From IMG/VR virus record IMGVR_UViG_2695420514_000009: 14,161 nucleotides of DNA; one strand, 5' to 3'. Within the stretch, counting starts at the first letter, position 1. Every line of letters starts with the position of its first letter. Of this stretch, positions 1-14,101 are shown piece after piece. The notes beneath the pieces are model-generated. The model saw only the letters and a program-made list of their open reading frames with translations, was not told the DNA's origin and did no database searches. Source of the DNA: a virus (taxonomy: Duplodnaviria; Heunggongvirae; Uroviricota; Caudoviricetes). A program made the translations under genes and the position numbers.

Positions 1-237
1 ATGGTACAGCTAAGTGATGACCAGAAAAGAAAAGTGGCGGCACAGAAACGAGCAGAGTGTTTGCGTAAGGCGCGCCGGACTCCGGTTTCACCGGTGAACC
101 TGACAGAAATAAAACAAGCGGTCAACAGACTACATTCTGAGTTGGGAATGGGATTTGAAGAGCGGCGGGTATTCCGACGATATAAAGGGACAGGAGAACA
201 GAATACGTCCGGAAACGCGCGGTCAAAAAAATGCTAA
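1..237 (+). CDS. hypothetical small basic protein; ORF begins exactly at the window edge, so the true start is uncertain
   Basis: 78-aa ORF from the six-frame track, lysine/arginine-rich, no family recognised. It is convergent with the minus-strand ORF 318-542 and followed by a hairpin at 275-299. Lower GC than the structural genes. Confidence 0.25.
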   Translation: MVQLSDDQKRKVAAQKRAECLRKARRTPVSPVNLTEIKQAVNRLHSELGMGFEERRVFRRYKGTGEQNTSGNARSKKC

Positions 238-317: not shown

Positions 318-542
318 TTAAGTAAACCTGTCTGAACAGGTGCTCTGGTCGTGTTTGTCTTTGTTGGGTAAAAATTGAGAATATTTTTCATTAATTAATC
401 TTCTTCTGCAGGCTTCAATAACCCACGCTGAAAAATTTTCTGAACCTTTCAGATCAAGAGCGATGTTAATTTGTTCAATCATCTGGTTTGGAAATCGGAT
501 GTTGCGGGTTGTTGTTCTGCGGGTTCTGTTCTTTGATGACAT
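318..542 (-). CDS. putative small ribbon-helix-helix (Arc/MetJ/CopG-like) DNA-binding protein
   Basis: 74-aa ORF with ATG at 540-542 (complement). Basic N-terminal tail (KNRTRRTTTR) followed by a predicted strand-helix-helix pattern, IRFPNQMIEQINIALDLKG-SENFSAWVIEACRRRL, which resembles the Arc repressor architecture. The RBS is weak. The DNA closely resembles what I recall of the lambda right end next to cos. Confidence 0.45.
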   Translation of the reverse strand: MSSKNRTRRTTTRNIRFPNQMIEQINIALDLKGSENFSAWVIEACRRRLINEKYSQFLPNKDKHDQSTCSDRFT

Positions 543-707
543 AATGTTGCCCCATATTCAGTGTTGCTGATTTGTATTATCTGAAGTTGCTTTTACGTTA
601 ATTTGATGCAGATCAATTAATACGATACCTGCGTCATAATTGATTATTTGACGTGGTTTGATGGCGTACACGCACGTTGTGACATGTAGATGATAATTAT
701 TATTTTG

Positions 708-722
708 TGGGTCCTTTCCGGC
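708..722 (+). promoter_or_regulatory. cosQ-like element (packaging termination signal) upstream of cosN
   Basis: GGGTCCTTTCCGGCG, about 17 bp upstream of the cosN nick, followed by ATCCGACAGGTTACG. This matches the lambda right-end terminal sequence as I recall it, with one or two substitutions. Confidence 0.5.
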
Positions 723-732
723 GATCCGACAG

Positions 733-755
733 GTTACGGGGCGGCGACCTCGCGG
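733..755. other. cosN cohesive-end site; predicted 12-nt 5' overhang GGGCGGCGACCT at 739-750
   Basis: TTACG|GGGCGGCGACCT|CGCGG matches the lambda cohesive end and its immediate flanks. It sits about 185 bp upstream of the terminase small-subunit gene, as in lambda. Confidence 0.8.
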
Positions 756-786
756 TTTTTCGCTATTTATGAAAATTTTCCGGGAT

Positions 787-893
787 CCATGTCCGGTTTC
801 TCTGCAAGTTAACTATATGAAAAATATAAAAACAGGCTGTCCGTGAACCGGACATGTGCAAAAAACGGACATGTAAACCGGACATGACCGGTT
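787..893. promoter_or_regulatory. cosB-like region: repeated terminase small-subunit binding (R-site-like) motifs flanking an AT-rich putative IHF-bending segment
   Basis: Motif AACCGGACATG occurs at 846-857, 864-874 (one base shorter) and 876-887 in direct orientation, and inverted at 787-798 (CCATGTCCGGTT). The AT-rich stretch 811-835 lies between the inverted copy and the direct copies. Similarity to lambda ends right after TTTTCCGG (about 782). Confidence 0.55.
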
Positions 894-933
894 TTGTGCT
901 GATTGTGAGGTAAGAGTTTTTGCGAGGTGAGGA

Positions 934-1443
934 GTGGCTACGCAGACTGAAGTTGCCAGGCATTTGAGTCTGACCGATCGCCAGCTTCGCAGATTGCAGA
1001 AATTACCGGGTGCCCCGGTCTCGAATAAGCGAGGGCAACTGGATCTGGATGCCTGGCGCGATTTTTACATATCGTATCTGAGGAGAAGTAAAAACGATGT
1101 GCCTGATGGCGATAGCGAAGACGACTATGAGGAAAAATTGCTTATTGCCAGATGGGAACTGACAGCAGAACAGGCTGTTACACAGCAGTTAAAAAATGAG
1201 GTGTCAAAAGGAAAACTTATTGACACCGGGTTCTGTATTTTTGCCCTCAGTAAGCTGGCAATGGCGTTATCCAGTACGCTTGATTCCATCCCTTTATCCA
1301 TGCAACGACAGTTTCCTGATTTAACACCGCGCCATCTTGACCATCTGAAAACCCTTATTGCGAAGGGGGCAAATCAGTGTGCGCGGGCGGGGGATAAATT
1401 ACCGGATTTACTCGATGAATATATCAGAGCAACAACTGAATAA
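934..1443 (+). CDS. nu1: terminase small subunit (gpNu1-like)
   Basis: 169 aa with GTG start at 934, the first start after an in-frame TGA, preceded by GAGGTG. It aligns along its length with recalled lambda gpNu1, for example FCIFALSKLA against FCTFVLSRIA, and a C-terminal LPDLLDEYI against LIPGLLSEYI. The N-terminal DNA-binding region is more divergent. The 3' end overlaps the next gene by 29 nt. Confidence 0.85.
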   Translation: MATQTEVARHLSLTDRQLRRLQKLPGAPVSNKRGQLDLDAWRDFYISYLRRSKNDVPDGDSEDDYEEKLLIARWELTAEQAVTQQLKNEVSKGKLIDTGFCIFALSKLAMALSSTLDSIPLSMQRQFPDLTPRHLDHLKTLIAKGANQCARAGDKLPDLLDEYIRATTE

Positions 1444-3343
1444 TATGATGAGTGCTGTCACAACAGCATTACAGCCCCTGATAAGGGCATTGCCGGTGAC
1501 GCCAGTTGAATGGGCTGATCAAAATTATTATCTGCCGAAAGAATCTTCATATGGTGAGGGAGAATGGAAAACGCTGCCATTCCAGATCGCCATTATGAAC
1601 TGTATGGGTAACGACCAGGTTCGCACGGTTAACCTGATTAAATCTGCCCGTGTTGGCTATACAAAGATGTTGCTGGGGGTGGTCGGGTATTTTATTGAGC
1701 ATAAATCCCGAAACAGTCTGCTTTTTCAGCCCACGGATTCTGCCGCTGAAGATTTTATGAAGTCTCACGTGGAGGCGACGATTAGGGACGTGCCATGCCT
1801 GAAAGACCTTTCCCCATGGCTGGGTCGTAAACATCGTGATAATACCCTCACGCTGAAACGCTTTTCATCGGGTGTGGGCTTCTGGTGCCTGGGCGGCGCT
1901 GCCGCCAAAAACTACCGTGAAAAATCCGTGGACGTGGTCTGCTATGACGAGCTTTCCTCGTTCGAACCGGATGTTGAAAAAGAGGGCTCGCCAACCCTGC
2001 TGGGGGATAAGCGTATTGAGGGCTCTGTATGGCCAAAATCCATTCGCGGCTCGACGCCTAAAATCAAAGGCACCTGTCAGATCGAAAAAGCGGCTAACGA
2101 GTCGGCGCATTTCATGCGTTTTTATGTGCCCTGCCCGCACTGTGGGGAGGCGCAGTATCTGAAATTTGGCGATGAGTCCACGCCTTTTGGGCTTAAATGG
2201 GAGAAGGACAGTCCCGAAAGCGTTTTCTACCTCTGTGAACATCATGGCTGCGTGATCCATCAGTCTGAACTGGACCAGAGCAACGGGCGGTGGATCTGTG
2301 AAAACACGGGCATGTGGACCCGTGACGGTCTGACGTTTTTCAGCGCTGCGGGTAATGAAATTCCGCCGCCGCGCTCCATCACTTTCCATATCTGGACGGC
2401 GTACAGTCCGTTCACCACCTGGGTACAGATTGTCTATGACTGGCTGGATGCACTGAAAGATCCCAACGGCCTGAAAACTTTTGTGAACACCACGCTGGGC
2501 GAGACCTGGGAAGAGGCCGTGGGCGAAAAACTCGATCACCAGGTTCTGATGGATAAGGTTGTTCATTACACGGCGGCGGTGCCTGCCCGGGTGGTTTATC
2601 TGACGGCGGGCATTGACTCGCAGCGAAACCGTTTTGAGATGTATGTCTGGGGATGGGCTCCGGGAGAGGAGGCCTTTCTGGTGGATAAAATTATCATTAT
2701 GGGGCGTCCCGATGAGGAAGAGACGCTATTACGTGTGGATGCGGCGATCAACAAAAAATACCGCCATGCAGACGGAACCGAAATGACCATTTCCCGTGTC
2801 TGCTGGGACATCGGGGGGATCGATGGCGAAATCGTTTATCAGAGGTCAAAAAAACACGGTGTTTTCCGGGTGCTGCCGGTAAAAGGCGCATCTGTCTATG
2901 GCAAGCCGGTGATCACCATGCCAAAAAACCGCAATCAGCGGGGCGTGTATCTGTGTGAAGTGGGGACGGACACCGCAAAAGAAATTCTCTATGCCCGTAT
3001 GAAAGCCGATCCCACGCCTGCGGATGAAGCCACGTCGTATGCCATCCGTTTTCCTGATGATCCGGAGATTTTTTCGCAGACAGAAGCGCAGCAACTGGTG
3101 GCGGAAGAGCTTGTGGAGAAGTGGGAAAAAGGAAAGATGCGTCTGCTGTGGGATAACAAAAAGCGGCGTAACGAAGCACTGGATTGCCTGGTGTATGCCT
3201 ACGCGGCATTACGTGTGTCCGTGCAACGCTGGCAGCTTGATCTGGCTGTACTGGCAAAATCCCGGGAAGAAGAGACGACCCGGCCAACCCTTAAAGAACT
3301 GGCAGCGAAGCTGTCCGGAGGAGTGAATGGTTACAGTCGCTGA
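1415..3343 (+). CDS. A: terminase large subunit (gpA-like; ATPase/nuclease)
   Basis: 642 aa from ATG 1415 (MNISEQQL...). Strong collinear similarity to lambda gpA, for example VEWADQNYYLPKESSYGEGEWKTLPFQ, DNTLTLKRF and KSVDVVCYDEL. The track ORF from 1358 is an upstream extension in the same frame; homology supports 1415. Confidence 0.93.
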   Translation: MNISEQQLNNMMSAVTTALQPLIRALPVTPVEWADQNYYLPKESSYGEGEWKTLPFQIAIMNCMGNDQVRTVNLIKSARVGYTKMLLGVVGYFIEHKSRNSLLFQPTDSAAEDFMKSHVEATIRDVPCLKDLSPWLGRKHRDNTLTLKRFSSGVGFWCLGGAAAKNYREKSVDVVCYDELSSFEPDVEKEGSPTLLGDKRIEGSVWPKSIRGSTPKIKGTCQIEKAANESAHFMRFYVPCPHCGEAQYLKFGDESTPFGLKWEKDSPESVFYLCEHHGCVIHQSELDQSNGRWICENTGMWTRDGLTFFSAAGNEIPPPRSITFHIWTAYSPFTTWVQIVYDWLDALKDPNGLKTFVNTTLGETWEEAVGEKLDHQVLMDKVVHYTAAVPARVVYLTAGIDSQRNRFEMYVWGWAPGEEAFLVDKIIIMGRPDEEETLLRVDAAINKKYRHADGTEMTISRVCWDIGGIDGEIVYQRSKKHGVFRVLPVKGASVYGKPVITMPKNRNQRGVYLCEVGTDTAKEILYARMKADPTPADEATSYAIRFPDDPEIFSQTEAQQLVAEELVEKWEKGKMRLLWDNKKRRNEALDCLVYAYAALRVSVQRWQLDLAVLAKSREEETTRPTLKELAAKLSGGVNGYSR

Positions 3344-7058: not shown

Positions 7059-8087
7059 ATGGGATTGTTTACGACCCGCCAGTTACTCGGTTATACCGAA
7101 CAAAAAGTTAAATTTCGTGCGCTGTTTCTGGAGCTGTTTTTCCGCCGTACAGTGAATTTCCATACCGAAGAGGTGATGCTGGACAAAATTACCGGAAAAA
7201 CGCCGGTGGCGGCCTATGTCTCCCCGGTTGTTGAAGGAAAAGTGCTGCGTCATCGTGGTGGTGAAACCCGCGTGTTGCGTCCGGGCTACGTCAAGCCGAA
7301 ACACGAATTTAATTACCAGCAGGCGGTTGAGCGCCTTCCTGGTGAAGATCCATCTCAACTGAATGATCCGGCTTACCGCCGTCTGCGTATCATTACCGAT
7401 AACCTCAAACAGGAAGAGCACGCGATTGTCCAGGTGGAAGAAATGCAGGCGGTAAATGCTGTGTTGTATGGCAAATACACTATGGAAGGAGACCAGTTCG
7501 AGAAAATTGAGGTCGATTTTGGCAGGTCGACGAAGAATAACATCACTCAGGGTAGTGGTAAGGAGTGGTCAAAACAGGATCGTGACACGTTCGATCCTAC
7601 ACATGATATTGACCTCTACTGCGACCAGGCCAGCGGTCTTGTGAATATTGCCATTATGGACGGTACCGTCTGGCGTCTGCTGAATGGCTTTAAATTGTTC
7701 CGCGAAAAACTGGATACCCGTCGCGGCTCTAATTCGCAACTCGAAACAGCGGTGAAAGACCTGGGCGCGGTGGTGTCCTTCAAAGGGTATTACGGCGATC
7801 TGGCCATTGTGGTGGCAAAAACGTCTTATGTGGCAGAGGACGGTACCGAAAAACGTTATCTGCCTGAGGGCTCGCTGGTCCTGGGGAATACGGCAGCAGA
7901 GGGCATTCGTTGCTATGGTGCCATTCAGGATGCGCAGGCGTTGTCCGAAGGTGTGGTGGCCTCTTCCCGTTATCCGAAACACTGGCTGACGGTAGGGGAT
8001 CCCGCCCGTGAATTTACCATGACGCAGTCCGCGCCGCTGATGGTGTTGCCGGACCCGGATGAGTTTGTGGTGGTACAGGTGAAATAA
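7059..8087 (+). CDS. E: major capsid protein (gpE-like)
   Basis: 342 aa, against 341 in lambda gpE. Extensive identity, for example GYVKPKHE, VEEMQAVNAVLYGKYTMEGD, KLDTRRGSNSQLETAVKDLG and GDPAREFTMTQSAPLMVLPDPDEF. Confidence 0.95.
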   Translation: MGLFTTRQLLGYTEQKVKFRALFLELFFRRTVNFHTEEVMLDKITGKTPVAAYVSPVVEGKVLRHRGGETRVLRPGYVKPKHEFNYQQAVERLPGEDPSQLNDPAYRRLRIITDNLKQEEHAIVQVEEMQAVNAVLYGKYTMEGDQFEKIEVDFGRSTKNNITQGSGKEWSKQDRDTFDPTHDIDLYCDQASGLVNIAIMDGTVWRLLNGFKLFREKLDTRRGSNSQLETAVKDLGAVVSFKGYYGDLAIVVAKTSYVAEDGTEKRYLPEGSLVLGNTAAEGIRCYGAIQDAQALSEGVVASSRYPKHWLTVGDPAREFTMTQSAPLMVLPDPDEFVVVQVK

Positions 8088-8094
8088 TCCGTGA

Positions 8095-8124
8095 GCGGGG
8101 GCGGAATGCCCCCGTGTCTTTTTT
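8095..8124 (+). terminator. rho-independent terminator-like hairpin immediately downstream of the major capsid gene
   Basis: CGGGGGC (8096-8102), loop GGAAT, GCCCCCG (8108-8114): a 7-bp all-GC stem, followed by a T6 run at 8119-8124. It lies 8 nt after the E stop codon. Confidence 0.55.
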
Positions 8125-8138
8125 CACAGGGGGATGAT

Positions 8139-8513
8139 ATGGCAACGAAAGAGCAAAATCTGAAACGGCTTGATGAACTGGCCCTGATTCTGGGGCGTGA
8201 GCCGGATATATCCGGGAGTGCCGCAGAGATAGCGCAGCGGGTGGCAGAATGGGAAGAGGAAATGCAGTCATCCGGCGATGATGTACAGGTTATGAATATG
8301 GATATCCGGGAGAGGGAAACCGCGGCTCATGATGTTCGTGAGGAAACATCCGGCGCGTTAACGCGCATCAGAGTTCTGACCTGCCTCCATCTCTGTGGCG
8401 TTGATGGTGAAACGGGGGAATCCGTTGAGCTTGCGGATGTTGGTCGGGTGATTCTGATTATGTCCTCAGATGCAAAAACACACGTTGATGGCGGAATGGC
8501 TGTTTATGCGTGA
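8139..8513 (+). CDS. FI: DNA packaging / head assembly accessory protein (gpFI-like)
   Basis: ATG at 8139 (MATKEQNLKRL...) preceded by AGGGGG, giving 124 aa. Acidic, gpFI-like composition and position between E and FII. The track ORF from GTG 8091 starts inside the terminator hairpin and is judged an over-extension. Confidence 0.75.
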   Translation: MATKEQNLKRLDELALILGREPDISGSAAEIAQRVAEWEEEMQSSGDDVQVMNMDIRERETAAHDVREETSGALTRIRVLTCLHLCGVDGETGESVELADVGRVILIMSSDAKTHVDGGMAVYA

Positions 8514-10614: not shown

Positions 10615-11046
10615 ATGTTTCTGAAAACCGAACAATTTGAATATAACGGTGTGTCCGTCACGCTTTCCGAGCTGTCTGCGCTGCAGCGTATCGAGCATCT
10701 TGCCCTGCTGAAACGACGGGCAGAACAGGCTGAAGCCAGCGGTAACCTGCAGGTGAGCGTGGAAGACCTTGTCAGAACCGGCGCGTTTCTGGTGGCGATG
10801 TCCCTGTGGCATAACCATCCACAGAAAACGGAGTCACCATCAATGAATGAGGCTGTGATGCAGATCGAACAGGAGGTGCTCACCACCTGGCCTGCTGATG
10901 CCATTGCCCGGGCGGAAGACGTGGTGTTGCGTCTGTCCGGGATGAGCGGGGCTGTTCATGTGGATACGGATATCACCGAAGTGGCGAAAAATAACGCGCT
11001 TACTGATGATGATTTTTCTGCGGGAAAGTCTTCGACGGCGAGCTGA
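10615..11046 (+). CDS. G: tail assembly chaperone (gpG-like)
   Basis: 143 aa with RBS GGAGG at 10605-10609. Near-identical to lambda gpG at the N-terminus (MFLKTE.FE.NGV.VTLSELSALQRIEHLAL) and at GAFLVAMSLWHNHPQKT. Slippery heptamer G GGA AAG at 11022-11028, 6 codons before the stop. Confidence 0.93.
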   Translation: MFLKTEQFEYNGVSVTLSELSALQRIEHLALLKRRAEQAEASGNLQVSVEDLVRTGAFLVAMSLWHNHPQKTESPSMNEAVMQIEQEVLTTWPADAIARAEDVVLRLSGMSGAVHVDTDITEVAKNNALTDDDFSAGKSSTAS

Positions 11047-11486
11047 ATTTTGCCCTCAGACTGGCGCGAGAGATGGGGCGACCCGACTGGCGCGCCATGC
11101 TTGCCGGGATGACATCCACCGAATATGCCGACTGGCGACATTTTTACCGCACGCATTATTTTCAGGATACCCAACTGGATATGCATTTTTCCGGGCTGAT
11201 GTACGCTGTACTCAGCCTGTTTTTTTGCGATCCGGATATGCATCCCTCTGATTTCAGTCTGCTTGTCCCCCGGCATGAGGAAGAGCAGGTGGAGAGGCTG
11301 GATGAGGACAAAATGCTGATGCAGAAAGCGGCAGGACTTGCCGGAGGCGTCCGGTTCGGTGGGGACGGAGGGGGCGATATTTTATCGTCTGCGGATGTGG
11401 CGGATGTCATGGTGGATGATGCTGCATTAATGATGGCTTCAGCGGGGATTCCAGGAGGTGTGAGATATGTCCCAGCCGGTTGGTGA
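10615..11486 (+). CDS. GT: tail assembly chaperone G-T fusion produced by programmed -1 ribosomal frameshift (G frame 10615-11027, then T frame from 11027/11028 to 11486)
   Basis: The slippery site GGGAAAG at 11022-11028 is the same heptamer used by lambda G/T. The -1 frame after the slip is open to 11486 and encodes gpT-like sequence (MGRPDWRAMLAGMTSTEYADW, HFSGLMYAVLSLFF, VLMQKAAGLAGGVRFG) with no independent RBS. Confidence 0.85.
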
Positions 11487-14101
11487 TCTTATTATTGACC
11501 TGAGTCTGGATGCGGTCCGTTTCGATGAGCAGATGAGCCGGGTAAGGCGTCATTTTTCAGGACTGGATACTGACGCCAGAAAAACCGCCACTGCTGTTGA
11601 ACAGGGGCTGAGCCGTCAGGCGCTGGCTGCGCAAAAAGCCGGGATTTCCGTCGGACAGTATAAAGCGGCCATGCGCACCCTGCCCGCACAGTTTACGGAT
11701 ATCGCCACGCAGCTTGCCGGTGGTCAGAATCCCTGGCTGATCCTGCTGCAACAGGGCGGTCAGGTGAAGGACTCCTTCGGCGGGATGATCCCCATGCTCA
11801 GGGGGCTTGCCGGTGCGATCACCCTGCCGATGGTCGGGGTCACCTCGCTGGCGGTGGCGACAGGTGCGCTGGCGTACGCCTGGTACCAGGGGGATTCCAC
11901 GCTTTCAGCGTTTAATAAAACCCTGGTTCTTTCCGGTAATCAGTCCGGACTGACTGCCGATCGCATGTTGACGCTCTCCAGAGTCGGACAGGCCGCAGGG
12001 CTGACGTTTAACCAGGCGAGTGAGTCACTGGCAGCCCTGGTGAATGCCGGTGTGCGTGGTGGTGAACAGTTTGATGCGATCAACCAGAGTGTTGCGCGTT
12101 TTGCGTCTGCATCCGGTGTGGAGGTGGATAAAGTCGCTGAAGCCTTCGGGAAGCTGACCACTGATCCGACGTCGGGACTGATGGCGATGGCGCGCCAGTT
12201 CCGTAACGTGACGGCAGAGCAGATTGCGTATGTTGCACAGCTGCAGCGTTCCGGTGATGAGGCCGGAGCCTTACAGGCGGCGAACGATATCGCCACGAAA
12301 GGCTTTGATGAGCAGACCCGCCGTCTGAAAGAAAACATGGGGACGCTGGAGACCTGGGCGGATAAAACAGGGAAGGCGTTCAAATCGATGTGGGATGCCA
12401 TTCTGGATATCGGTCGTCCGGAATCCTCAGCGGATATGCTCGCCAGTGCGCAGAAGGCATTCGATGAGGCGGATAAAAAATGGCAGTGGTACCAGAGCCG
12501 GAGCCAGCGTCGGGGAAAGACCGCCTCTTTCCGTGCCAACCTTCAGGGCGCATGGGATGACCGTGAAAATGCCCGTCTGGGGCTGGCGGCGGCAACACTG
12601 CAGTCGGATATGGAAAAAGCCGGTGAACTGGCGGCAAGGGATAAGGCTGAGCGTGACGCGTCACAGCTGAAATATACCGAAGAGGCACAGAAGGCGTATG
12701 AACGGATGCTGTCGCCGCTGGAGAAATATACCACCCGTCAGGAAGAACTGAATAAGGCCCTGAAAGACGGAAAAATCCTGCAGGCGGATTACAACACGCT
12801 GATGGCGTCGGCAAAAAAGGATTATGAGTCGACGCTGAAAAAGCCGTCCGGTGTGAAGGTTTCAGTCGGTGAGCGCCAGGAAGACCGGGCACATGCAGCT
12901 ATGCTGGCGCTTGAAACCGAGCTCAGGACGCTGGAAAAACACAGCGGTGTGAATGAGAAAATCAGCCAGCAGCGCCGGGATTTATGGAAAGCGGAAAATC
13001 AGTATGCGGTCCTTAAAGAGGCTGCCACGAAACGGCAGTTATCTGAGCAGGAAAAATCCCTGCTGGCCCATGAGAAAGAGACGCTGGAGTACAAACGCCA
13101 GCTGGCTGAGCTGGGCGACAAGGTGGAACACCAGAAACGGCTGAATGAGCTGGCGCAGCAGGCGGCGCGGTTTGAACAGCAGCAAAGCGCGAAGCAGGCG
13201 GCAATCAGCGCAAAAGCCCGCAGTCTCACCGACCGTCAGGCGCAGCGCGAGTCGGAAGAGCAGCGGCTTCGTGACGTGTACGGTGATAATCCGGCTGTGC
13301 TGGCGAAGGCCACATCTGCACTGAAGAACACCTGGTCTGCGGAGGAGCAGCTTCGTGGAAGCTGGATGGCTGGCCTGAAGTCCGGCTGGAGCGAGTGGAA
13401 AGAGAGTGCCACGGACAGTATGTCGCAGGTTAAAAGTGCTGCCACGCAGACCTTTGATGGTATTGCGCAGAATGTGGCGGCGATGCTGACCGGCAGTGAG
13501 CAGAACTGGCGCAGCTTCACCCGTTCCGTGCTGTCCATGATGACAGAAATTCTGCTAAAGCAGGCAATGGTGGGGATTGTCGGGAGTATCGGCAGCAATG
13601 ATGACAGAAATTCTGCTTAAGCAGGCAATGGTGGGGATTGTCGGGAGTATCGGCAGCGCCATTGGCGGAGTTGTTGGTGGCGGCGCATCAGCGTCAGGCG
13701 GTACAGCCATTCAGGCTGCGGCGGCGAACTTCCATTTCGCGACCGGGGGATTTACGGGAACCGGTGGCAAATATGAGCCAGCGGGGATTGTCCACCGCGG
13801 GGAGTTTGTCTTCACGAAGGAGGCAACCAGCCGGATTGGTGTCAGCAACCTGTACCGCCTGATGCGGGGCTATGCGGAAGGTGGTTATGTGGGCGGTGCC
13901 GGAAGTCCGGCGCAGAGGCGGCGGGCGGAAGGCATTAATTTTAATCAGAACAATCACGTGGTGATTCAGAACGACGGCACGAACGGGCAGATAGGTCCGG
14001 CTGCTCTGAAGGCGGTGTATGACATGGCCCGCAAGGGTGCCCGTGATGAAATTCAGACACAGATGCGTGATGGTGGCCTGTTCTCCGGAGGTGGACGATG
14101 A
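11467..14101 (+). pseudogene. H: tail tape measure protein gene (gpH-like), frame disrupted by a 61-bp tandem duplication; present as a 717-aa N-terminal ORF (11467-13620) plus a C-terminal ORF in the +1 frame (13598-14101)
   Basis: RBS AGGAGG before ATG 11467. The N-terminal part is coiled-coil-rich with a hydrophobic segment, typical of tape measure proteins. The C-terminal ORF encodes a Gly-rich conserved gpH C-terminus (GGFTGTGGKYEPAGIVHRGEFVFTKEATSRIG). Removing one repeat copy restores a single ~857-codon ORF, against ~853 aa for lambda gpH. Confidence 0.8.
13536..13657 (+). repeat. 61-bp direct tandem duplication (2 copies, 59/61 identical) inside the tape measure gene
   Basis: Copy 1 is 13536-13596 and copy 2 is 13597-13657. 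They differ at the first base (C vs A) and at 13557 vs 13618 (A vs T). The second difference creates the in-frame TAA (13618-13620) and a CTTAAG hexamer (13616-13621). Confidence 0.9.

What the first reader, a model, noticed from the sequence alone, without database searches (positions are those of the whole stretch)
708..933. Lambda-type cosQ/cosN joined to a non-lambda cosB built from ACCGGACATG repeats
The 12-nt cohesive end and its flanks are lambda-like, but similarity stops right after TTTTCCGG (about 782). Downstream are four copies of an AACCGGACATG-like motif, one inverted and three direct, bracketing an AT-rich segment placed like the IHF site I1. The adjacent Nu1 homolog has a divergent N-terminal DNA-binding region while the rest of the terminase is lambda-like. 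This is the pattern expected for a distinct packaging specificity, where the Nu1 DNA-binding domain and cosB co-vary in mosaic fashion.
Basis: partly seen in the sequence, partly recalled or inferred. Interest (0 to 1): 0.55.

Follow-up and report, generated by a model that had tools for sequence, protein, structure and literature searches.

The report
Lambda-like cos with distinct cosB
This is the DNA-packaging start site (cos) of a very common lambda-like E. coli prophage: its cutting site is lambda's, but the terminase-binding repeats and the DNA-binding head of the small terminase subunit are a different matched pair, so it probably packages only its own kind of DNA.

Summary
The window holds a complete lambda-type cos. 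It has cosQ GGGTCCT (709-715), the cohesive-end 12-mer GGGCGGCGACCT (739-750, not 738) and a cosB built from CATGTCCGGTTT repeats. DNA similarity to lambda (94%) ends at 783.

The repeats sit where lambda and phage 21 have their terminase sites: R3 at 788-799, an IHF-like AT-rich site near 810-822, and an inverted R2 at 845-856. A composite R1 follows at 875-894. A fifth copy (863-874) is not conserved.

The small terminase subunit (TerS, 934-1443) has a MerR-like winged helix-turn-helix head, as lambda Nu1 does. BLAST and Pfam cannot align this head to Nu1.

Three results support a matched TerS/cosB module.
- Across 37 cos variants, R3, R2 and R1 are conserved and the spacers are not.
- Across 33 helix variants, Arg20 goes with GTCCGGTT, while Asp, Asn, Ser, Thr or Lys goes with TTCCGGTT.
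- Natural chimeras join the same TerS C-terminal half to an N15/Monarch-type head and cosB.

The element is ordinary in distribution: 21% of complete E. coli genomes carry it, including O157 Sakai prophages Sp4 and Sp14. No paper in the searched library describes this repeat type. In passing, the unexplained cos2 of the chromosomal island EcCICFT073 has this cosB. Binding and packaging specificity remain untested.

The parts
600..783 (+). Segment nearly identical to the right end and left end of lambda DNA; the mosaic junction lies at 783/784
   Evidence: blastn 93.6-95.7% identity to lambda, HK629/630, DE3 and others over window 600-783 only. A 'cos site' feature is annotated under the match in phage DE3.
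709..715 (+). cosQ (GGGTCCT), the packaging-termination element
   Evidence: Lies 30 bp upstream of the cohesive end, as in lambda. One variable column (minor-allele frequency 0.004) across 37 cos variants. Present even in distant metagenome relatives. PMC4669245 states that cosQ is 7 bp and highly conserved.
739..750 (+). cosN cohesive-end sequence GGGCGGCGACCT; nicks are inferred at 738/739 on the top strand and 750/751 on the bottom strand
   Evidence: Identical to the 12-mer of lambda, 21 and phi80. Positions 737-752 are invariant in 37 variants. The nick positions are inferred from lambda, not measured.
751..787 (+). Conserved cosN-to-R3 spacer (...TTTCGCTATTTATGAAAATTTTCCGG...), equivalent to the lambda I2 region
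   Evidence: Aligned with lambda, 21 and phi80. 4 of 35 columns vary among variants.
788..799 (+). R3: CATGTCCGGTTT, the proposed critical TerS-binding site (bp 50-61 from the cohesive end)
   Evidence: Invariant in 37 variants. Same place as lambda and 21 R3, which are at bp 53-64. Its sequence covaries with TerS residue 20.
810..822 (-). I1-like IHF site: TTTCATATAGTTA on the minus strand, followed by an A-tract; 2 mismatches to WATCAANNNNTTR
   Evidence: At the same bp 72-84, relatives L095, L096 and L101 match the IHF consensus perfectly, and L097, L099 and L100 with 1 mismatch. L094 could not be placed by that scan but shows TAACCAATTGATT by eye. Region 800-844 is 33% G+C. IHF binding was not tested.
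845..856 (-). R2: inverted copy (GAACCGGACATG on the plus strand), bp 107-118
   Evidence: Same place and orientation as lambda R2 (bp 109-120) and 21 R2 (108-119). 2 of 12 columns vary, minor-allele frequency 0.009.
863..874 (-). Degenerate extra copy (AAACGGACATGT), probably not functional
   Evidence: 7 of 12 columns vary among close variants, for example AAATAGACACTA in PhiR12_2.
875..894 (.). R1 composite: inverted copy AAACCGGACATG (875-886) overlapping a direct 1-mismatch copy CATGACCGGTTT (883-894)
   Evidence: Minor-allele frequency 0.022. Relatives L094 and L098 keep only the inverted copy here.
934..1443 (+). Terminase small subunit (TerS, 169 aa, GTG start). The DNA-binding domain is aa 1-55 (934-1098). 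The predicted recognition helix is aa 15-22 (976-999). The Arg20 codon is 991-993.
1415..3343 (+). Terminase large subunit (TerL), overlapping the end of TerS as in lambda
   Evidence: tblastn with lambda gpA residues 1-638 gives 66% identity at 1415-3319.

Best explanation
Positions 709-933 are the cos site of a lambda-like prophage of the same type as E. coli O157 Sakai Sp4 and Sp14. It most likely works as lambda cos does.

1. A dimer of the TerS winged helix-turn-helix domain binds R3 (788-799) and the inverted R2 (845-856). The two sites are brought together by a host-IHF bend at the AT-rich I1-like site (about 810-822). The R1 composite (875-894) adds stability.
2. TerS bound at R3, at a fixed distance from cosN, positions TerL to make nicks staggered by 12 nt at cosN (739-750).
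3. cosQ (709-715) serves termination at the next cos.

The cutting and termination elements are lambda's. The repeats (CATGTCCGGTT) and the TerS recognition helix (DRQLRRLQ) form a different matched pair. This terminase should therefore select DNA carrying this cosB and ignore lambda, 21 and N15-type cosB.

Within the family, helix residue 20 appears to read the fourth base of the repeat. Arg goes with G. Asp, Asn, Ser, Thr or Lys goes with T.

Shown here: the sequence anatomy, its conservation, the covariation, the predicted fold and the modular exchange. Inferred: TerS and IHF binding, the nick positions, and the packaging specificity.
For: Anatomy and spacing:
- R3 lies at bp 50-61, the IHF-like site at 72-84 and R2 at 107-118 in the nine enterobacterial loci of this TerS family that the script could anchor. 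Lambda, phi80, 21 and Gifsy-1 have R3 at 53-64 and R2 at 108-120.
- All five matches to the motif in 14 kb lie in 789-893. Shuffles give a mean of 0.9.

Footprint:
- In 37 distinct cos variants flanking TerS genes that are 99% identical, cosQ, cosN and R3 are invariant or nearly so.
- R2 and R1 are near-invariant. The spacers and the middle copy vary.

Covariation:
- The table covers 206 TerS starts, 86 distinct sequences and 33 helix variants.
- Every helix with Arg at position 20 has (A/G)TGTCCGGTT. This includes the distant LDMTDRHLRRLIQQ of L233. L233 shares a near-identical cosQ-cosN segment with L212, whose helix has Asn20 and whose repeat is CTTCCGGTT.
- Helices with Asp, Asn, Ser, Thr or Lys at position 20 have TTCCGGTT.

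Link to lambda and 21:
- hhalign puts window Arg20 opposite lambda Asn21, where phage 21 has Arg21.
- Lambda repeats have T and 21 repeats have G at the equivalent base, bp 56. Published genetics identify that base as discriminating lambda from 21 (PMC4669245).

Fold:
- The AlphaFold N-terminal model (pLDDT 76) has the order helix, helix, wing, helix.

Modularity:
- L227 TerS is 82% identical to P0022 over residues 50-169. It has an N15/Monarch-type head and a GGTTGTTGTTT / AACAACAACC cosB.

Function in living phages:
- The same cos and TerS occur in phage records PhiR12_1 to _5, whose listed hosts are K-12 and E. coli C.
- Sakai Sp4 DNA was reported to be packaged, presumably by Sp14 terminase, because their cos sites are identical (PMC2669165).
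- The record of Aeromonas phage phiARM81ld starts at a 12-nt end. CATTTCCGGTTCCGGTT follows at bp 52, and its TerS belongs to this family with Asn20.
Against: - No binding, footprint or packaging data exist for this repeat type. Nothing here measures them.
- The IHF-like site in this window has 2 mismatches to the consensus.
- The repeat shares CATGTC..GG with phage 21 repeats (9 of 12 positions at a 3-bp offset), and both proteins have Arg at the aligned helix position. Partial cross-recognition with 21 is therefore not excluded. N15 terminase is known to package lambda DNA despite dissimilar sites (PMC4669245).
- The covariation rests on few independent events, roughly three, because most loci are related.
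- The R1-like copies are in the R2 orientation, unlike lambda, so the lambda model may not transfer in detail.
- Foldseek matches with the full-length model were not significant.
- This particular prophage may be defective: its tape-measure gene is frameshifted.
Confidence: 0.8

Rival explanations
1. The site has the same packaging specificity as phage 21 and is not a separate one. The repeats are drifted 21-type R sites, and this TerS and 21 gp1 are interchangeable.
For: CATGTCCGGTTT matches 21 R1 (CATGTCGGGCCT) at 9 of 12 positions, with the 5' half CATGTC identical. Arg at the aligned helix position is shared by 21 gp1 (Arg21) and this TerS (Arg20). cosQ and cosN are identical.
Against: - The 3' half differs (CCGGTTT against GGnCCTT).
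- The repeat is offset 3 bp toward cosN in every member. In lambda, changes of more than 1-2 bp in cosN-R3 spacing are deleterious (PMC4669245 and PMC9026076).
- BLAST does not align the two DNA-binding domains.
- Within the family, a single base change tracks a single residue change, which argues for tight reading of the site.
- CFT073 carries a 21-type prophage and, on its island, a separate cos of this type.
Confidence: 0.1
2. The repeats are not terminase sites. They would be a transcriptional element of the late operon: an operator for another regulator such as the neighbouring PerC-family protein, or a terminator or attenuator.
For: The region is intergenic, just upstream of the first late structural gene. 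The terminator-like scan finds short hairpins at 780-796 and 838-854, formed by the repeats. It found 4 sites against 1.0 +/- 0.9 in shuffles.
Against: - The hairpins have only 5-6 pairs and poor T-runs, and they are by-products of CCGG-containing repeats.
- Repeat positions are fixed relative to cosN in the nine anchored enterobacterial loci.
- The sequence covaries with the TerS helix, not with upstream genes, which differ among loci.
- The repeats are exchanged together with the TerS head in natural chimeras.
- The island EcCICFT073 keeps cosQ, cosN and this cosB without any late operon.
Confidence: 0.03
3. This cos is a relic. The prophage is defective and the repeats are conserved only because the copies diverged recently.
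For: The tape-measure gene in the window is split by a 61-nt tandem duplication. Most loci compared are very close relatives.
Against: - Variation among the same loci is concentrated in the spacers and in the middle copy, not in R3, R2 or R1.
- The architecture holds at 60-80% TerS identity in Klebsiella, Salmonella, Citrobacter and Enterobacter.
- Phage records PhiR12_1 to _5 carry it.
Confidence: 0.05

Closest known systems
Bacteriophage lambda cos (cosQ-cosN-cosB with R3-I1-R2-R1) and gpNu1
   Same: - Identical cosQ and 12-nt cohesive end, and 94% DNA identity up to bp 45.
- R3, the IHF-like site and the inverted R2 lie at almost the same distances from cosN.
- TerS has an N-terminal MerR-like winged helix-turn-helix domain and a homologous C-terminal half.
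- TerL is 66% identical.
   Different: - The repeat is CATGTCCGGTTT rather than CGTTTCCtTTCT (8 of 12 matches to lambda R3 at a 3-bp offset).
- The TerS head is not alignable to Nu1 by BLAST or Pfam.
- The R1-like copy is mainly in the R2 orientation.
- There is an extra degenerate copy.
Bacteriophage 21 cosB and gp1 (the classical second lambda-like packaging specificity)
   Same: Same architecture and identical cosQ and cosN. The 5' half of the repeat, CATGTC, is shared. G occupies the base equivalent to bp 56. Arg occupies the aligned recognition-helix position.
   Different: The 3' half of the repeat differs, there is a 3-bp offset, and the TerS heads are not alignable by BLAST.
N15 / Monarch-type cosB (GGTTGTTGTTT) and TerS
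   Same: It is another lambda-like cos with its own repeat and head pair. Natural chimeras show that it exchanges with this one on the same TerS C-terminal backbone. Simple cosB forms (R3 only) exist in both families: N15, and phiARM81ld or the metagenome relatives.
   Different: The repeat sequence and the recognition helix are unrelated.
cos and Nu1 of E. coli O157:H7 Sakai prophages Sp4 and Sp14 (Asadulghani et al. 2009, PMC2669165, Fig. S8)
   Same: It is the same element. Their Nu1 begins MATQTEVARHLSLTDRQLRRLQKLPGAPISNKRG, and their cos reads ...TTTTCCGGGATCCATGT.... Packaging of Sp4 DNA was reported.
   Different: That paper aligned the sequences with lambda. In the text and supplement I could read, it did not analyse the cosB repeats or the specificity.
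cos2 of the phage-inducible chromosomal island EcCICFT073
   Same: cosQ, cosN, R3, the I1-like site, R2 and the inverted R1 copy are nearly identical to the window.
   Different: No TerS gene is adjacent. Similarity ends inside R1. The published work tested only lambda and phi80 helpers and found cos2 dispensable (PMC6739421 and PMC6092414).

Membership tests
Lambda-type cos site | 12-nt cohesive-end sequence related to lambda's, flanked by symmetric CG dinucleotides | tested here: met
   CG|GGGCGGCGACCT|CG at 737-752, identical to lambda, 21 and phi80. Actual nicking was not tested.
Lambda-type cos site | cosQ (GGGTCCT) about 30 bp upstream of the cohesive end | tested here: met
   Found at 709-715. 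Conserved in all relatives, including distant ones.
Lambda-type cos site | R3 site about 50-65 bp from the left cohesive end, with a second inverted copy (R2) about 55 bp further on | tested here: met
   R3 at bp 50-61 and R2 at bp 107-118, against 53-64 and 109-120 in lambda.
Lambda-type cos site | IHF site I1 between R3 and R2 | tested here: inconclusive
   The window has TTTCATATAGTTA, 2 mismatches to WATCAANNNNTTR, followed by an A-tract. At the same position relatives match with 0 mismatches (L095, L096, L101) or 1 mismatch (L097, L099, L100). Binding was not tested.
Lambda-type cos site | R1 in the same orientation as R3 | tested here: inconclusive
   A direct copy at 883-894 has 1 mismatch and overlaps an exact inverted copy at 875-886. 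Relatives keep the inverted one or have no R1.
Lambda-type cos site | TerS binds the R sites and virion DNA ends lie at cosN | not testable with these tools
   Needs EMSA or footprinting and end mapping. The indirect support is covariation and the phiARM81ld record starting at a 12-nt end.
Lambda packaging specificity (R = CGTTTCCtTTCT, Nu1 helix SIRTIQNWQE) | Repeat sequence and recognition helix of the lambda type | tested here: not met
   The repeat is CATGTCCGGTTT and the helix is TDRQLRRLQK. BLAST does not align the N-terminal 48 residues to Nu1.
Phage 21 packaging specificity (R = CATGTCGGnCCT) | Repeat sequence, register and gp1 helix of the 21 type | tested here: not met
   9 of 12 matches only at a 3-bp offset. 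The heads are not alignable by BLAST. Functional cross-packaging was not tested.
N15 / Monarch specificity (R = GGTTGTTGTTT) | Repeat sequence and helix ISVQAFDKW | tested here: not met
   Neither is present in the window. They are present in chimeric relatives L187-L211 and L227.
Pfam PF07471 Phage_Nu1 | Match above the gathering score | tested here: met
   67.9 bits against a cut-off of 30, but only for residues 49-150 (profile positions 62-163). The DNA-binding part of the profile is not matched.
MerR-like winged helix-turn-helix TerS DNA-binding domain (as in gpNu1 1-68 and Rpp) | Helix, turn, helix, beta-wing, long helix fold | tested here: met

The most novel reading that the evidence does not exclude
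This cosB and TerS head define a broad and old 'CCGGTT-type' branch of lambda-like packaging systems. It runs from enterobacterial prophages to Pseudomonas and Aeromonas phages and to environmental proteobacterial genomes.

The branch has a simple readable code: helix residue 20 reads the fourth base of the repeat. The same code would explain the lambda versus 21 difference at bp 56.

The unexplained second cos site (cos2) of the chromosomal island EcCICFT073 would be a plain copy of this cosB. The island could then be packaged directly, without its Rpp protein, by Sp14- or PhiR12-type helper phages. It would use Rpp and cos1 only to hijack lambda-, phi80- and 21-type helpers.
Probability: 0.45. 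Interest if true: 0.65.

Novelty: new variant of a known kind. Interest (0 to 1): 0.5.

Why it matters
Packaging specificity decides which DNA a terminase puts into capsids. It therefore decides which defective prophages, cosmids and chromosomal islands a given helper phage can spread.

This cos/TerS type is present in about one in five complete E. coli genomes, often several times per genome in Shiga-toxin-producing strains. Identical cos sites there are thought to let one prophage package another.

A defined repeat, a predicted reading residue and natural head-swap chimeras give a tractable system alongside the lambda, 21 and N15 specificities for studying how TerS reads DNA. The match to EcCICFT073 cos2 offers a concrete, testable reason why that island carries two cos sites.

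Tried and rejected
- A sequence search of the full TerS against all PDB chains found nothing meaningful; the best E-value was 0.7.
- NCBIfam has no model matching this TerS.
- The genome-contig scan returned only 6 distant loci.
- The first viral-contig scan returned 80 near-identical loci. Diversity had to be collected protein by protein.
- Literature:
  - A search for 'cosB' alone was swamped by cobalt antimonide papers.
  - 'PhiR12' found no relevant paper, so I could not learn whether the virion ends of those phages were mapped.
  - No paper in the searchable library describes the CATGTCCGGTT repeat. Subscription papers from the Feiss laboratory are not covered, so prior description cannot be excluded.
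- The promoter scan was at chance level, with 2 sites against 1.6 expected. The terminator-like hairpins are short by-products of the repeats and of cosN symmetry. I rejected a transcriptional role.
- The 66-aa minus-strand ORF at 763-963 and the small 'hypothetical protein' annotated over cosB in PhiR12_2 were considered and judged spurious, because they overlap the conserved non-coding repeats. This was not tested further.
- In the 1.84-billion-protein search, the 2,465-aa hit P0105 is a translated tandem repeat with summed weak matches. It is not a relative.
Full report
**What is in the sequence**

Window 600-783 is 93.6-95.7% identical to the joined right and left ends of lambda and its close relatives. 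The similarity stops at 783, just after TTTTCCGG.

Inside this segment lie GGGTCCT at 709-715 and CG|GGGCGGCGACCT|CG at 737-752. The cohesive-end 12-mer is at 739-750, one base to the right of a first count by eye. These are the lambda cosQ and cosN sequences at the lambda spacing.

Downstream, the 10-mer ATGTCCGGTT occurs with at most one mismatch at five places:
- 789-798 (+)
- 846-855 (-)
- 863-872 (-)
- 876-885 (-)
- 884-893 (+)

It occurs nowhere else in the 14,161 bases. In 200 dinucleotide-preserving shuffles the mean total was 0.9, and there were never more than 2 matches within 120 bp.

The segment between the first and second copy is 33% G+C, against 54% for the whole window.

A 169-codon ORF with a GTG start follows at 934-1443. 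It overlaps a 66%-identical homolog of lambda gpA, which starts at 1415. The rest of the window runs in lambda order through W, B, C, D, E, FII, Z, U, V, G, T and H to the start of M, at 52-95% amino-acid identity. FI has no detectable homolog.

**Placement relative to known cos sites**

| Phage or family | R3 | IHF-like site | R2 (inverted) | R1 |
|---|---|---|---|---|
| Lambda, phi80, 21, Gifsy-1 | bp 53-64 | bp 74-91 (none at ≤1 mismatch in Gifsy-1) | bp 108-120 | bp 153-166 |
| Window | bp 50-61 | not found at ≤1 mismatch | bp 107-118 | copies at 124-135, 137-148 (inverted), 145-156 (direct) |

The phage 21 record annotates its sites as putative gp1-binding R boxes.

Eight further enterobacterial loci with homologous TerS genes could be anchored in the same way. 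They come from E. coli phage PhiR12_2, E. coli, Salmonella, Citrobacter, Enterobacter and one unassigned sequencing-run contig. All have R3 at bp 50-61 and an inverted R2 at bp 107-118. A Klebsiella locus, L094, lacked the anchor but shows the same layout by eye.

At bp 72-84, three of these loci match the IHF consensus WATCAANNNNTTR perfectly and three with one mismatch. The window has TTTCATATAGTTA, with 2 mismatches, followed by an A-tract. The layout is therefore the 'complex cosB' of lambda-like phages described in PMC4669245 and PMC9026076, moved 2-3 bp toward cosN.

**The repeats are a relative of the lambda and 21 R sites, not a foreign element**

At the 3-bp offset, CATGTCCGGTTT matches:
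- 21 R1 (CATGTCGGGCCT) at 9 of 12 positions
- lambda R3 (CGTTTCCGTTCT) at 8 of 12 positions

It does not match the N15/Monarch repeat GGTTGTTGTTT or the Gifsy-1 repeat CAGATCCtTTC.

**The TerS head**

- Pfam Phage_Nu1 covers only residues 49-150.
- BLAST aligns only residues 49-164 to lambda Nu1 (40%) and 49-166 to 21 gp1 (36%).
- The PDB sequence search finds nothing.
- Profile methods do connect the heads. phrog_57 covers residues 1-58 of this protein and 1-61 of lambda Nu1. hhalign aligns the family profile to Nu1 over its whole length, with probability 99.7.
- AlphaFold models (pLDDT 72 for the full length, 76 for residues 1-62) give helix 4-10, helix 15-22, a wing, and helix 38-55.

The head is therefore a strongly diverged MerR-like winged helix-turn-helix domain of the gpNu1 kind.

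**Evidence that the repeats are the sites this head reads**

*(a) Footprint.* 76 IMG/VR loci whose TerS is 99% identical give 39 distinct cos variants, and 37 rows were analysed.
- R3 and cosN are invariant. cosQ has one rare variant.
- R2 has a minor-allele frequency of 0.009, the R1 composite 0.022 and the I1-like site 0.018.
- The spacers reach 0.11-0.15 and the middle copy 0.12.
- One variant has lost exactly the 30 nt between R2 and R1. That is the product expected of unequal crossing-over between repeats.

*(b) Covariation.* From 206 TerS starts I obtained 86 distinct sequences and 33 helix variants.
- All helices with Arg at position 20 (LRRLQK in E. coli, Citrobacter, Enterobacter and Salmonella; HLRRLIQQ in a distant viral contig) have (A/G)TGTCCGGTT.
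- Helices with Asp, Asn, Ser, Thr or Lys have ATTTCCGGTT, ACTTCCGGTT, GCTTCCGGTT or GGTTCCGGTT.
- The distant Arg20 locus L233 shares a near-identical cosQ-cosN segment with L212, which has Asn20. The two differ from the repeat onward: GTGTCCGTGTCCGGTT against GCTTCCGGTTCCGG. This counts as a separate event.
- A third Arg20 case, L225, has GTGTCGTGTC.
- hhalign places Arg20 opposite lambda Asn21, where 21 gp1 has Arg21. Lambda repeats have T and 21 repeats have G at the equivalent base, bp 56. Published genetics single out that base pair for lambda/21 discrimination (PMC4669245). That work attributes the discrimination to residues 20 and 24, so assigning it to residue 20/21 is my inference.

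*(c) Modular exchange.* Several viral contigs encode a TerS whose C-terminal half belongs to this lineage.
- L227 is 82% identical to Salmonella P0022 over residues 50-169.
- L208 is 60% identical to Enterobacter P0036 over residues 26-169.
- Their heads are of the N15/Monarch type (MAVLLNKSDMASSIGISVQAF...).
- Their cosB is GGTTGTTGTTT, then an IHF-like site, then AACAACAACC, then GGTTGTTGTAT.

**Distribution and prior knowledge**

- The cos plus TerS segment (700-1450) is found at 80% or more coverage in 1,141 of 5,426 complete E. coli genomes. The median is two matching places per genome that has any, and the maximum is ten.
- It is present in phage records PhiR12_1 to _5.
- Figure S8 of PMC2669165 shows the same Nu1 (MATQTEVARHLSLTDRQLRRLQKLPGAPISNKRG...) and cos for Sakai prophages Sp4 and Sp14. 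That paper reports that Sp4 DNA is packaged, presumably by Sp14 terminase.
- I found no description of the repeats or of the specificity in the searchable library. That library lacks most subscription papers.
- The head family reaches beyond enterobacteria.
  - Pseudomonas phage LPPA33 has a TerS 43% identical over its full length.
  - Aeromonas phage phiARM81ld starts its record at a 12-nt end. It has CATTTCCGGTTCCGGTT at bp 52 and TerS at bp 79, which is a simple cosB like that of N15.
  - Metagenome-assembled genomes and viral contigs keep GGGTCCT, a cosN-like segment and tandem CCGGTT just before TerS.
- A single-sequence search of the 62-residue head against 1.84 billion representatives found 40 clusters. 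All are short TerS-like proteins except one spurious repeat protein.

**Most likely mechanism**

The mechanism is the lambda one. A TerS head dimer docks on R3 and R2 across an IHF bend, and R1 assists. TerS at R3 positions TerL to nick cosN. cosQ serves termination.

The anatomy, conservation, covariation, predicted fold and modularity are shown here. TerS and IHF binding, the nick positions and the exclusion of lambda, 21 and N15 DNA are inferred. I put 0.8 on the repeats being the cognate TerS sites of a separate recognition type. I put about 0.1 on functional equivalence with phage 21.

**A side finding**

In E. coli CFT073, the island EcCICFT073 has two cos sites flanking its rpp gene.
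- The site next to rpp has its own cosB (GGTGACACCACCACCAC).
- The other, on the opposite strand, matches the window base for base through cosN, R3, the I1-like site, R2 and the inverted R1 copy. It then diverges and has no TerS gene.
- 63 complete genomes carry this full arrangement.

The published work found cos2 dispensable for transfer by lambda and phi80. It also could not identify a phage cosB in the island. The natural reading is that cos2 lets the island be packaged directly by helpers of the present specificity. That reading is untested.

**Verdict**

This is a real, well-observed and correctly interpreted feature. It is an ordinary and very common prophage cos site. It represents a packaging-recognition variant that, as far as I could search, has not been formally described. 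It comes with a simple apparent reading rule and a link to an open question about island packaging.

Noticed in passing
L247 (E. coli CFT073 NC_004431.1 1380000-1429999): minus strand about 8140-8345; rpp-like gene 7660-8094; other cos at 7529-7660: The island EcCICFT073 carries a second cos whose cosB is the window type (R3, I1-like site, R2 and inverted R1 nearly identical), with no TerS gene beside it. 63 complete E. coli genomes have the full arrangement. Published work found this cos2 dispensable for lambda and phi80 helpers and left its cosB unexplained.
   Followed up: partly
window 13537-13657: A 61-nt tandem duplication (98% identical copies) lies inside the tape-measure gene H. It shifts the frame and splits the gene into ORFs 11467-13620 and 13577-14101. 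The prophage may be tail-defective, or this may be an assembly artefact.
   Followed up: partly
window 1-237 (+) and 318-542 (-): Two small genes lie upstream of cos. One is cut by the window start; its closest E. coli counterpart is annotated as a PerC-family transcriptional regulator (Pch-like, as in EHEC prophages). The other, on the opposite strand, corresponds to a YlcI/YnfO family protein. EcCICFT073 also has PerC-family and YlcI/YnfO genes.
   Followed up: no
IMG/VR variant u38 (equivalent to window 846-875): One otherwise identical cos variant lacks exactly the 30 nt between R2 and the R1 copy. That is the product expected of unequal crossing-over between repeats, the route proposed in the literature for how N15 lost R2 and R1.
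   Followed up: no
L008, L009, L010-L013, L212-L243 (upstream of TerS): Distant relatives in environmental Proteobacteria keep GGGTCCT (cosQ), a cosN-like segment and a ...CTAT.TATGA...TTTT block. These are followed by tandem direct CCGGTT repeats and then TerS directly. This looks like a simple cosB form, and it suggests that lambda-type cos is far older and wider than the enterobacterial phages.
   Followed up: partly
L233 versus L212 (IMG/VR contigs): The two contigs share a near-identical cosQ-cosN segment. Their TerS proteins are only 51% identical and their repeats differ, so the mosaic junction again falls at the cosN/cosB border, as in the window at 783.
   Followed up: partly
window 11022-11028: GGGAAAG, the lambda G/GT -1 frameshift slippery heptamer, is present near the end of the G homolog (10615-11046). 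The T homolog continues in the -1 frame.
   Followed up: no
window 8091-8513: The ORF in the position of lambda FI has no detectable similarity to lambda FI by tblastn, whereas all neighbouring head and tail genes do.
   Followed up: no
lambda bp 41-48 (L002) and window 779-783: Lambda itself has TCCGGTTT immediately before its R3, and the window has TTTTCCGG at the same place. This is the core of the present family's repeat. I could not tell whether it is chance or a vestige.
   Followed up: no
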